Below are positions 18,001-21,000 of a DNA stretch of 47,797 nucleotides, in pieces (the stretch's first letter is position 1; each line of letters starts with the position of its first letter). The stretch lies in the UHGV virus genome UHGV-0177318; one strand, given 5' to 3'. The stretch is from a virus. The position numbers are program-made.

Positions 18001-21000
18001 CCAACCTTGCTCAGGTGGCCACGCGTAAAACTCTGTCGGCATCGGTAGCCGGTAACAGCGCACAGCTGGACCGCATTGATGAGGTGATCGTCACTGACAG
18101 GGAGGCAACGGCACGCGCATTGCTGAGCCTGCAGACGAACGTCAACGGTAATACGGCATCCATCAACAGTCTGAGCCAGACGGTTTCGAATTATCAGCAG
18201 GCCACGGCGACGCAGATCAACGCCATCACTGCGACCATAAACGGTAATACGGCGGCGATAACAACAAACGCCCAGGCCATTGCGAACGTAAACGGCCAGC
18301 TCAGCGCGATGTACAACATCAAGGTTGGGGTAACGAGTAATGGCCAGTATTACGCCGCAGGCATGGGGATCGGGGTGGAGAATACGCCATTAGGGATGCA
18401 GTCGCAGGTTATCTTCCTGGCCGATCGTTTTGCCGTGACTACTGCAGCCGGTAACAGCGTGGCGTTGCCGTTTGTTATTCAGAACGGGCAGACGTTCATC
18501 AGGGCCAGCTTCATTCAGGACGGTACCATTGAGAACGCTAAAATCGGCAACTTTATTCAGTCCAATAACTATGTGGCTGGATCTGTAGGCTGGAAGCTTG
18601 ATAAGGGAGGAACGTTCGAAATTAACGGTGTGGGCGGAGGTGGAAGGATGCTGATATCGAGCACTCTCATTCAAATCTACGACAGCAATAACGTGCTGCG
18701 CGTCAGAATGGGGTTATGGTAATGCCACAGGGTTTACAGTGCTGGGACGGCGCCGGGCGTATTGCCGTTGATTTAAGTGATTACGCTATCCGGTATATTG
18801 GAAGCACTTCTGTAACATTTGCCGCGGGGGAAACGGCGAAAGACGTTTCCTTTTCCGGTGTAACGCAGGATGGATCATTTATATCAATCGTATCGGCGAG
18901 TTCGGCAGGAGTAATAAATGAATATTATTGCCGGGCTTTTAATGGTGGATTTACCGTTTTTTATTTACCGAGCGGCGGCAGTATTTCTATCACTCTCAAT
19001 ATGGAGGTTTATAACTTTCAATGAGTGGATTCGAAGTTTATAACAGTGCTGGAAAATTGCTGGTTGATTCACAAAACAGATCAACACTTTTTTATGATCA
19101 GCGTGTGCTCGGCGCAGTGACTGACAAAGGACATTACCGTGTGGATAGTCCGTTCGGAAACGGAAGCACACTGGGCTTTACCCAGCCGCAGTTCTGGAAT
19201 GATGGGAATTTGCGTTGGCTGCAGCTGGATACTAATAAGTATGGCTTACCAGGCGCTGACCTTCTGGAAGACAATGCGGGCAGTATGATACGCACGTCCA
19301 GAAACGTTGGAATGCAAAGCGGATATCTGGATGTTTTCGACAGCGCGGGGAATCTTATCTGGAGCGCCGCCTCGGCATCGAAAATGCCGCGCGTGGTGGG
19401 CTTTTTCGACGTGCCGGCCAATTACGATCTACAGAACAATACCTTTGCGGTAAACCTGAGTTTTAACCCGTGGATTCTGGTTAACAACTGCCCTGGTAAC
19501 CTCAGTGACGACGGTACGGTTGTTGGTTATTCAGGAATCGTTCTCAAATGGACAGGCTCACAGCTGCAGGGGAGGTACATCACAAAAAATCAGCGCAACT
19601 GGAGCCAGACACTTCAGGGGCGAGGGCTACGAATTCCCATCGCTCAGTTTGTCGGAATTTGATACGGGCGGGACGCGGGGGTATTGAGTAGCGATCATGT
19701 TTTGCTTAACACCTTTTGCAGGTTCGAAGCGGTATACGACATCAAGCTTATCCGTTTTCTTATAACAGATGTTGCTGAGCCGCTTATTTATATGTCGGCT
19801 GAAAATGCCATTGCTGCTGTCTGAAATTACGTTAACTTCCCTCGTGGCACAGTCGATATTTACGTGAATATCTCCCCCCAGAGATAAGCGCGCCGCATCC
19901 ACCGGGTAATCCATTCTGAAGGCATAGTCTCTGTCTTTGTCGGCACAGCCAGCCGCCAGCAAAAGTGCCACGGCAAATAATCGTTTCATTTCTACATTCC
20001 TGTATCTGCGGGAATATCCATTTTATTTGAGTTTAAAAAATAGTCAGATTGATATGAGCGATCATTTTTACATTATTGATCGCTTTAAACGATCGTTATT
20101 ATCGTGAGGTAGTTCATGCTTTATAACACTGGAACCATTGCTGTCAACGGAAATACCGCCACAGGGACGGGTACTAACTGGACGGCACCTGCCAGCCAGG
20201 TCCGCGCTGGCCAGACGATTATCGTCATGTCGAGCCCGGTTCAAATTTTCCAGATCTCAAGCGTGGACAGTTCCACCTCGATGACGGTTACACCTGCCGC
20301 CGCTCCGGCACTTAGCGGTCAGAAGTATGGAATCCTGGTGTCCGACAATATCTCTGTCGACGGACTGGCACAGGCCATGTCGCAGCTCATCAAAGAGTAT
20401 GACGAGAATATTGGCGCGTGGGAGACGTTCGCCACAACCTTAGCCAATCAGAGCATTACCGTAACCATTAACGGCACCCCTGTAACGATCCCCGGCATCG
20501 GCAAACTGGCGCAAAAAGGGAGTAACGGTGCGCTGGCTGTTGCTGACGGCGGCACTGGGGCCACGAAGGCAGAGGACGCTCGCACAAACATCGGTTTGGG
20601 AGACAGCGCCACCAAGAGTGTTGGGACGGTAACTGGTACCGTAGCTGCCGGCGATGATTCTCGCATCACTGGTGCCCTTCAAAAAACTGGCGGGAAACTT
20701 ACAGGACAACTGGATTTGGTAAGTGCACCGCTTGTGGCAGACGGTAACTCGGTTATTGTTGCAAATGGTGGTCTTGATGTTGATTTAGCAAAAGGACTAG
20801 CGTTAAGAGGAAGAGTGCAGCAGGGGGCGGGCAAAAACAATAATATACTTGTGGTATCTGGAGATGGTGATACAGGCGCGACGGGATATGTAGGTGCATT
20901 CCAGTATAACTGGTATACCGATGGCTGGATTACAGGGATTACCCGTGGTTCAGGAACTAACACGCTGACGTATTCGATTTACTATAACGGTGCATCTTAT

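What the first reader, a model, noticed from the sequence alone, without database searches (positions are those of the whole stretch)
18716..19989. Uncharacterised module after J: two novel ORFs and a convergent lipoprotein
Where lambda carries lom/stf/tfa, this phage has a 102-aa ORF and a 213-aa ORF with an internal duplicated motif (FEVYNSAGKLLVDS / LDVFDSAGNLIWSA), then a minus-strand lipoprotein (LLAAGC lipobox) that overlaps the 213-aa ORF by 36 bp. The lipoprotein is a candidate Cor/Llp-like receptor-blocking exclusion protein; the repeat protein could be a fibre-associated adhesin or chaperone.
Basis: partly seen in the sequence, partly recalled or inferred. Interest (0 to 1): 0.45.

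Follow-up and report, generated by a model that had tools for sequence, protein, structure and literature searches.

The report
Receptor-binding pair plus TonB-mimic exclusion lipoprotein
The three genes after the tail-tip gene J are this temperate phage's copy of a module already described, by prediction only, in the virulent phage IsaakIselin: two small proteins that probably bind the outer-membrane transporter PqqU (YncD), and a lipoprotein shaped like the end of TonB that probably blocks that receptor from inside.

Summary
All three ORFs, the repeated motif, the lipobox and the 36-bp convergent overlap are in the sequence. The first ORF more likely starts at 18722 (100 aa).

The module is not novel. 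It is homologous gene for gene to the RBP-2 / RBP-1 / SIP-1 trio of Drexlerviridae phage IsaakIselin (38%, 47% and 31% identity). Four phages with an orfB homologue need PqqU/YncD experimentally: IME347, IsaakIselin, KLB19 and KLB26.

The best explanation is that orfA and orfB form the terminal receptor binder on the J tip, and the lipoprotein is an exclusion factor acting on the periplasmic face of PqqU.

What differs here is that the host is a temperate HK639-like lambdoid, and the exclusion protein is lipid-anchored, on the opposite strand, with a possible promoter of its own.

Verdict: new member of a known kind, modest interest. No function has been tested experimentally.

The parts
15258..18722 (+). 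J-like central tail fibre (tip attachment protein), 1154 aa; presumed carrier of the receptor-binding pair
   Evidence: The ORF is. The start at 15258 is inferred from the length of HK639 gp23. Against the IsaakIselin J-like protein, identity over the C-terminal 600 aa is 36%. It is 22-27% in the coiled-coil stretch and 53-79% over the last 74 aa.
18722..19024 (+). orfA, homologue of IsaakIselin RBP-2 (QXV80561); 100 aa (alternative start 18716 gives 102 aa)
   Evidence: BLASTP against bas10_0026 gives 38% identity, E 7e-20. It matches phrog_7961 at 1.5e-32. The family is aligned in A3. The start overlaps the J stop as TAATG.
19021..19662 (+). orfB, homologue of IsaakIselin RBP-1 (QXV80560); Pfam DUF8377 (PF28254), 213 aa; probable terminal receptor-binding protein
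18731..18778 (+). Motif copy 1 (orfA residues 4-19, GLQCWDGAGRIAVDLS)
19027..19074 (+). Motif copy 2 (orfB residues 3-18, GFEVYNSAGKLLVDSQ)
   Evidence: This segment has low pLDDT (48-50) in the monomer model.
19321..19368 (+). Motif copy 3 (orfB residues 101-116, GYLDVFDSAGNLIWSA); the most conserved segment of the family
   Evidence: pLDDT is 57-66 in the monomer model.
19627..19989 (-). Lipoprotein, homologue of IsaakIselin SIP-1 (QXV80559); 120 aa; probable superinfection-exclusion factor
   Evidence: BLASTP gives 31% identity, E 3e-14. It matches phrog_25729 at 7e-64. The family is aligned in A1 with an invariant Cys15. The codon-position substitution pattern is 13/6/59.
19945..19989 (-). 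Lipoprotein signal peptide and lipobox (MKRLFAVALLLAAG-C); residue +2 is Ala
   Evidence: Read directly from the sequence. No family member has Asp at +2. From the established Lol-sorting rule this implies outer-membrane sorting.
19720..19917 (-). TonB-C-terminal-domain-like core (residues 25-90), with a YP motif and two conserved Cys (C47, C75)
19627..19662 (.). 36-bp convergent overlap of the 3' ends of orfB and the lipoprotein gene
   Evidence: Coordinates. The same 36-bp overlap is present in LLS and in E. coli prophages. It is absent in Franconibacter, where the lipoprotein is shorter.
20020..20047 (-). Candidate sigma-70 promoter for the lipoprotein gene (CTGACT, 16 nt spacer, TAAAAT)
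   Evidence: Consensus scan, 9 of 12 matches, not above the chance expectation for the region. The -10 element is conserved in 5 of 5 aligned relatives and the -35 element in 4 of 5. That it functions as a promoter is inferred only.
20116..21435 (+). Side tail fibre with a C-terminal Peptidase_S74 intramolecular chaperone (context; not part of the trio)
   Evidence: Pfam PF13884 at 5e-12, plus PHROG tail-fibre families.

Best explanation
The region is a three-gene host-recognition and exclusion cassette of the PqqU (YncD) type, attached to the end of the J gene of a temperate HK639-like lambdoid phage.

**Receptor binding.** orfA (RBP-2-like) and orfB (RBP-1-like, DUF8377) are translationally coupled to J. 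They are predicted to form a heterodimer that sits on the conserved C-terminal tip of the trimeric J fibre. The heterodimer would bind the extracellular face of PqqU, a TonB-dependent transporter, in its open, ligand-free state, and this binding would trigger DNA ejection.

**Exclusion.** The convergent gene encodes a small outer-membrane lipoprotein. After an 11-residue tether, its mature part is a TonB-C-terminal-domain look-alike, probably disulphide-stabilised. It would be made from its own promoter, probably in the lysogen. It would dock on the periplasmic face of PqqU, most likely by taking the place of TonB at the TonB box and plug. PqqU would then be held in a state the receptor-binding pair cannot bind. 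This would exclude the phage itself and other PqqU-dependent phages.

**What is shown and what is inferred.**
- Shown here: homology of all three proteins to the IsaakIselin trio, the synteny, the folds, the lipobox, and the conservation.
- Shown by others: phages carrying orfB homologues depend on PqqU.
- Inferred: virion location, heterodimer formation, PqqU as the receptor of this particular phage, the binding site of the lipoprotein, and the exclusion phenotype.
For: **Gene-for-gene homology to IsaakIselin.**
- orfA to RBP-2: 38% identity, E 7e-20.
- orfB to RBP-1: 47% identity, E 5e-68.
- Lipoprotein to SIP-1: 31% identity, E 3e-14.
- The same trio lies next to J in IsaakIselin, IME347, HazelMika and K29PH164C1.

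**Link to PqqU.**
- Four phages with orfB homologues of 46-49% identity need PqqU/YncD experimentally: IME347 and IsaakIselin (PMC8594841), and KLB19 and KLB26 (PMC13412088; hits).

**Published modelling.** AlphaFold2-multimer places RBP-1 and RBP-2 on the outer face of PqqU and SIP-1 on the periplasmic face. SIP-1 was noted to be TonB-C-terminus-like (PMC12124388).

**Independent results here.**
- The lipoprotein family profile hits only TonB chains in the PDB (E 0.009).
- The J tip is the part of J best conserved with IsaakIselin.
- The lipoprotein homologue co-occurs with the orfB homologue in 44 phage records. Franconibacter and E. coli prophages keep the same J, small ORF, DUF8377, convergent lipoprotein order.
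- Two Cys are conserved in every family member, consistent with a periplasmic disulphide.
- The upstream region of the lipoprotein gene, including a -10 element, is conserved.
Against: - No experiment exists for any member. RBP-1, RBP-2 and SIP-1 functions in IsaakIselin rest on AlphaFold models and genome position. Dunbar et al. showed that such models placed the Rtp45 and Oekolampad exclusion proteins wrongly on LptDE.
- The receptor of this phage, and of HK639 and LLS, is unknown.
- 47% identity leaves room for a different receptor, especially as the variable loops differ.
- The promoter match is no better than chance by count.
- IsaakIselin infects tonB mutants normally, so simply displacing TonB would not by itself stop infection.
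Confidence: 0.72

Rival explanations
1. Same cassette architecture, different receptor. orfA and orfB would bind another outer-membrane protein (another TonB-dependent transporter, or a PqqU paralogue in Enterobacter or Salmonella), and the lipoprotein would block that protein instead.
For: Identity to the experimentally typed phages is only 44-49%. The segments at residues 20-60 and 133-150 vary widely across the family. The closest homologues come from Enterobacter, Salmonella and Kluyvera prophages whose receptors are unknown. Receptor modules at this locus are known to diversify by exchange.
Against: All four family members with known receptors, from two host genera, use PqqU. LLS, which is 95-98% identical in this module, grows on E. 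coli K-12, and K-12 has PqqU. A TonB-like exclusion protein fits a TonB-dependent transporter in either case.
Confidence: 0.15
2. The lipoprotein is a general TonB-box decoy rather than a PqqU-specific blocker. It would bind the TonB boxes of many transporters and give the lysogen broad resistance to TonB-dependent phages and colicins, at a cost in iron, B12 and PQQ uptake.
For: It has a TonB C-terminal-domain fold with the YP motif and an edge strand equivalent to TonB beta3. From established structures of TonB bound to FhuA and BtuB, TonB boxes are short and are bound by strand addition.
Against: The gene is strictly linked to DUF8377-type receptor-binding genes in phages and prophages. The family is tiny, with 21 representatives among 1.84 billion proteins. 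Both facts argue for a receptor-specific partner. General TonB blockade would be costly to a lysogen.
Confidence: 0.08
3. orfA and orfB are non-structural assembly factors or chaperones for a tail fibre, and the lipoprotein is an unrelated moron (for example a virulence or serum-resistance factor like Bor or Lom, or a lysis spanin).
For: The position corresponds to lom/stf/tfa in lambda, just before a side-fibre gene. No virion proteomics is available.
Against: - There is no match to Tfa, gp38 or other chaperone families.
- The side fibre has its own Peptidase_S74 chaperone.
- In Drexlerviridae the trio sits beside J, separated from the lateral fibre gene by recombination genes.
- The orfB model resembles a solved receptor-binding protein.
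- The lipoprotein travels with the pair in unrelated phage backbones.
Confidence: 0.05

Closest known systems
IsaakIselin (Bas10) RBP-2 / RBP-1 / SIP-1 (QXV80561, QXV80560, QXV80559), the PqqU(YncD)-type receptor locus of Drexlerviridae (Maffei 2021; Munder 2025)
   Same: All three proteins are homologous (38%, 47% and 31% identity). The order of the small ORF, the DUF8377 ORF and the TonB-like ORF is the same. The locus is next to a J-like gene with a conserved C-terminal tip. The third protein is exported to the periplasm.
   Different: - The host phage here is a temperate lambdoid, not a virulent T1-like phage.
- Here orfA and orfB run in the same direction as J and are translationally coupled to it. 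In Drexlerviridae the whole trio is convergent with J.
- Here the third gene is on the opposite strand, with its own upstream region.
- Here the third protein has a lipobox, where Drexlerviridae members have an SPase I site (NAMA|).
T5 pb5 / Llp and T1, phi80, N15 Cor (FhuA-directed receptor binding plus an exclusion lipoprotein)
   Same: The logic is the same: a receptor-binding determinant at the central fibre tip, paired with a small outer-membrane lipoprotein that acts on the periplasmic face of a TonB-dependent transporter.
   Different: There is no sequence similarity, and none was seen at fold level. Llp and Cor share a small fold of their own, whereas this lipoprotein has the TonB C-terminal fold. 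The target is PqqU, not FhuA.
Oekolampad RBP / Rtp44 with Rtp45 (LptD-directed locus; Dunbar et al. 2025, PDB 9rpt)
   Different: Sequence identity is 7%. That system has a single receptor-binding protein of about 310 aa rather than a pair of 100 and 213 aa. Its exclusion protein is a roughly 6-kDa hairpin that pushes a loop of LptD from inside, and it is not TonB-like.
TonB C-terminal domain (E. coli TonB, FusB; PDB 2grx, 7zc8, 1u07)
   Different: - It has no N-terminal membrane anchor and no Pro-rich spacer, so it cannot couple to ExbBD.
- It is lipid-anchored to the outer membrane.
- It has two extra conserved Cys.
- It has a conserved C-terminal extension (MIATQ..R) that TonB lacks.
- It is below the Pfam TonB_C threshold.

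Membership tests
PqqU/YncD-type receptor locus (IsaakIselin RBP-1/RBP-2/SIP-1) | RBP-1 homologue (DUF8377) with more than 30% identity and about full coverage to typed members | tested here: met
   47% identity over 213 of 213 aa to bas10_0025. Identity to IME347, KLB19 and KLB26 is 46-49%. The criterion is from preprint 10.64898/2026.04.02.716166.
PqqU/YncD-type receptor locus (IsaakIselin RBP-1/RBP-2/SIP-1) | RBP-2 homologue of about 100 aa immediately upstream of RBP-1 | tested here: met
   38% identity, E 7e-20. orfA and orfB are adjacent and overlap as ATGA.
PqqU/YncD-type receptor locus (IsaakIselin RBP-1/RBP-2/SIP-1) | Exported TonB-C-terminus-like third protein encoded next to the pair | tested here: met
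   31% identity, E 3e-14 to SIP-1. TonB C-terminal-domain fold. It has a signal peptide, here of the lipoprotein type.
PqqU/YncD-type receptor locus (IsaakIselin RBP-1/RBP-2/SIP-1) | Locus abuts a J-like central fibre gene with a matching C-terminal tip | tested here: met
   The last 74 aa are 53-79% identical to IsaakIselin J.
PqqU/YncD-type receptor locus (IsaakIselin RBP-1/RBP-2/SIP-1) | Infection depends on PqqU and is inhibited by PQQ | not testable with these tools
   This needs plating on a pqqU deletion strain. It is known only for IME347, Bas10, KLB19 and KLB26.
TonB C-terminal domain (Pfam TonB_C, PF03544) | Sequence reaches the Pfam TonB_C gathering score | tested here: not met
   No TonB_C hit for the window protein or for any of seven other family members, even at E up to 10. 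The control TonB sequence scored 3.3e-21.
TonB C-terminal domain (Pfam TonB_C, PF03544) | Three-stranded sheet plus helices that superpose on solved TonB C-terminal domains | tested here: met
TonB C-terminal domain (Pfam TonB_C, PF03544) | Inner-membrane anchor and Pro-rich spacer coupling to ExbB-ExbD | tested here: not met
   The sequence has a lipoprotein signal peptide and then only 11 residues before the domain.
TonB C-terminal domain (Pfam TonB_C, PF03544) | Binds a TonB box by strand addition | not testable with these tools
Published AlphaFold2 models exist only for SIP-1.
Cor / Llp exclusion lipoproteins | Outer-membrane lipoprotein encoded beside the receptor-binding determinant | tested here: met
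   Lipobox with Ala at +2, and a position next to orfB.
Cor / Llp exclusion lipoproteins | Sequence or fold homology to Llp or Cor | tested here: not met
Tail fibre assembly chaperones (Tfa / gp38-like) | Match to a known chaperone family, encoded directly after the fibre gene it serves | tested here: not met
   No such match for orfA or orfB. They follow J, not the side-fibre gene, and the side fibre has its own Peptidase_S74 chaperone.

The most novel reading that the evidence does not exclude
The TonB-like lipoprotein works as an energy-dead TonB decoy. By occupying the TonB box of PqqU it would stop TonB from resetting the transporter. Trace PQQ would then lock PqqU in its closed, ligand-bound state, which the receptor-binding pair cannot bind. 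In effect it would copy a tonB mutation at a single receptor. tonB mutants are protected from IsaakIselin by about 1000-fold less PQQ. This would be an exclusion mechanism that depends on the receptor's own ligand. It would also make lysogens selectively unable to scavenge PQQ.
Probability: 0.15. Interest if true: 0.6.

Novelty: new member of a known kind. Interest (0 to 1): 0.3.

Why it matters
- It extends the 'separate receptor-binding protein plus cognate exclusion protein next to gpJ' system from small virulent siphophages into classical lambdoid temperate phages. It also predicts the so far unknown receptor of the HK639/LLS group: PqqU.
- It gives a convenient test bed for the still untested idea that phages reuse the TonB C-terminal domain to shut a TonB-dependent transporter. 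A lysogen, or a single cloned lipoprotein gene, should protect against PqqU-dependent phages such as IsaakIselin and may block high-affinity PQQ uptake.
- It corrects the annotation of HK639, which lacks the lipoprotein gene.

Tried and rejected
**Direct database searches.** Pfam, NCBIfam and PADLOC gave nothing for the three proteins. Single-sequence PDB searches gave nothing for orfB and only chance antibody hits for orfA.

**Domain duplication.** I asked whether orfA and the two halves of orfB are full-length paralogous domains. hhalign aligns only the 16-20 aa motif, with low probability. Only the bridging match to phrog_2427 suggests more. This is left open.

**A fourth motif copy in J.** The last residues of J (IQIYDSNNVLRVRMG) look like the motif by eye. 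That suggested three J hairpins pairing with three motif hairpins. A motif HMM did not hit J at E up to 100, so I dropped the idea.

**Cor/Llp homology.** Rejected.

**Spanin or other lysis role for the lipoprotein.** Rejected on position and fold.

**Chaperone role for orfA and orfB.** Rejected.

**Literature on the receptor of HK639 or LLS.** None found.

**Virion proteomics for related phages.** None found.

**Terminator after the lipoprotein gene on the minus strand.** None found by the scan.

Full report
**Observation**

The window carries, directly after the J-like gene:
- orfA, an ORF of 102 aa at 18716..19024;
- orfB, an ORF of 213 aa at 19021..19662;
- on the other strand, a 120-aa ORF at 19627..19989 that begins MKRLFAVALLLAAGC. 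It overlaps orfB by 36 bp.

The likely true start of orfA is ATG 18722. That ATG overlaps the J stop as TAATG. Homologues are 98-100 aa and begin MP.GLQ, and phage LLS is annotated that way.

Family profile comparisons align exactly these three segments and nothing else (E 0.0013-0.036). phrog_2427 matches both orfA and residues 101-160 of orfB.

All three ORFs belong to conserved families. The lipoprotein gene shows a 13/6/59 distribution of substitutions over codon positions against HK639. It is therefore a real gene, even though the HK639 record does not annotate it.

**Context**

The window is an HK639-like lambdoid phage. The module is 95% identical to phage LLS and 79% identical to HK639. 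In every record the three genes are 'hypothetical'.

G+C falls from 0.56 in the body of J to 0.41-0.50 across 18700-20100, as expected for an exchangeable cassette.

Downstream lie a side tail fibre with a Peptidase_S74 chaperone domain and umuDC-like genes.

**What the proteins are**

*orfB.*
- It carries the recent Pfam family DUF8377 (PF28254).
- tblastn finds full-length homologues at 44-49% identity in Drexlerviridae, including IME347, IsaakIselin, KLB19 and KLB26.
- These four phages are experimentally dependent on the TonB-dependent transporter PqqU/YncD (PMC8594841; PMC13412088).

*The trio in other phages.*
- In IsaakIselin, IME347, HazelMika and K29PH164C1 the orfB homologue is flanked by a homologue of orfA of about 101 aa and a homologue of the lipoprotein of about 110 aa. 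All lie next to the J-like gene.
- Pairwise BLASTP against IsaakIselin gives 38% (7e-20), 47% (5e-68) and 31% (3e-14).

*Published work on the IsaakIselin trio.* Munder et al. 2025 (PMC12124388) named the proteins RBP-2, RBP-1 and SIP-1.
- Their AlphaFold2-multimer models place an RBP-1/RBP-2 dimer on the open extracellular face of PqqU.
- They place SIP-1 on the periplasmic face.
- They noted that SIP-1 resembles the TonB C-terminus.

*Independent results here.* I reached the same fold assignment for the window's lipoprotein before finding that paper.
- A profile of 21 family members hits only TonB chains in the PDB, best E 0.009.
- The AlphaFold2 model has a confident core (pLDDT 85-95 over residues 25-90).

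**How it most likely works**

By homology and synteny, orfA and orfB are the terminal receptor-binding pair carried on the J tip.
- The last 74 residues of J are the part best conserved with IsaakIselin, at 53-79%. The coiled-coil region is only 22-27% identical.
- This agrees with the view that the gpJ tip must fit the locus-encoded receptor-binding protein.

The lipoprotein has a PROSITE-type lipobox and Ala at +2. No family member has Asp at +2. By the Lol sorting rule it should therefore sit in the inner leaflet of the outer membrane. That is the position of the known exclusion lipoproteins Llp and Rtp45.

Other features of the lipoprotein:
- an 11-residue tether;
- a TonB-like core with the YP motif;
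- two Cys conserved in every family member and absent from TonB;
- a conserved, unmodelled C-terminal extension.

The most likely mechanism is docking at the TonB box and plug face of PqqU, fixing a state that the receptor-binding pair cannot bind.

IsaakIselin does not need TonB, and tonB mutants are protected by about 1000-fold less PQQ. A decoy that keeps TonB away could therefore act by trapping PqqU in its closed PQQ-bound state. Alternatively it may act allosterically, as Llp does. Neither step is shown.

**What differs from the described module**

- In temperate phages and prophages (window, LLS, HK639, E. coli and Franconibacter prophages), orfA and orfB follow J on the same strand. 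The third gene is convergent and always has a lipobox.
- In the five Drexlerviridae examined, all three genes are on one strand and convergent with J. There the third protein has an SPase I site (NAMA|) and no lipobox Cys.
- The region upstream of the lipoprotein gene is conserved and holds a promoter-like site. Its -10 element is kept in five of five relatives. This would allow expression in the lysogen, but the scan is not above chance.
- The family is very small: 21 representatives among 1.84 billion proteins. It shows a third export mode, long forms with an internal signal-anchor.

**Family membership**

- The module meets every testable feature of the PqqU-type locus.
- The lipoprotein has the TonB C-terminal fold. 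It fails the Pfam TonB_C sequence threshold and lacks the anchor and spacer needed for energy transduction.
- It works like Cor and Llp but is not related to them.

**Verdict**

This is a new, temperate-phage, lipid-anchored member of a module already described computationally.

Interest is modest. The open point is experimental: nobody has yet shown that these TonB-like proteins exclude phages, or how they would do so.

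Noticed in passing
window 14636..15193 (+): An extra ORF lies between the tail assembly gene I and J. It encodes a probable lipoprotein (..KKYGLVLLGVLFISGC..; phrog_8179, unknown function; no Pfam hit). LLS and HK639 have no gene at this position, so it looks like a moron inserted in the tail operon.
   Followed up: partly
window 21619..23363 (+): UmuD-like (157 aa) and UmuC-like (422 aa) genes follow the side tail fibre gene. HK639 has only a UmuD-like gene here. Franconibacter prophages with the same receptor module also carry a Peptidase_S24 plus IMS (Y-family polymerase) pair at this place (L006).
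   Followed up: no
L002 (HK639 NC_016158) 6025..6384, record 23538..23897: The HK639 records do not annotate the lipoprotein gene. They call a 52-aa ORF on the opposite strand instead (HK639_26, 23839..23997). The codon-position substitution pattern (13/6/59) shows that the minus-strand lipoprotein frame is the one under selection.
   Followed up: yes
window 20060..20095: Three GATC (Dam) sites lie within 35 bp, partly in an inverted repeat (TGATCGCTTTAAACGATCG), just upstream of the side tail fibre gene. They are conserved in LLS, HK639 and an E. coli prophage. This could be a regulatory element for the fibre gene or for the divergent lipoprotein gene.
   Followed up: no
window about 17780..18320 (J residues about 841-1020): This is a long heptad-rich, coiled-coil-like stretch of J, and it diverges strongly from IsaakIselin J (22-27% identity). 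A 2026 preprint on F7 pyocin predicts that the equivalent region of the HK639 central fibre switches from a coiled coil to a beta-prism.
   Followed up: no
P0214, P0217, P0218, P0220 (representative-library hits): These members of the TonB-like exclusion family are 196-271 aa long. They have an N-terminal extension of 110-190 aa, then an internal hydrophobic segment (..HKIGLAFAGAALLFSGMTRA|EV..), then the domain. They are either mis-called starts or an inner-membrane-anchored variant.
   Followed up: no
one search hits H64-H69 (Acinetobacter phages Presley, XC38, CP14): Only the N-terminal 133-158 residues of orfB find matches (29-36% identity) in Acinetobacter phages with much larger genomes. 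This suggests that the N-terminal part of DUF8377 is a more widely used module than the whole protein.
   Followed up: no
window 19627..19662 and L005 6336..6440: The last 12 or so codons of the lipoprotein (..SNSDKLSDGNS) are encoded antisense to the conserved C-terminus of orfB. They are missing in the shorter Franconibacter protein, where the genes do not overlap. The apparent conservation of this tail may therefore reflect constraint on orfB rather than on the lipoprotein.
   Followed up: partly
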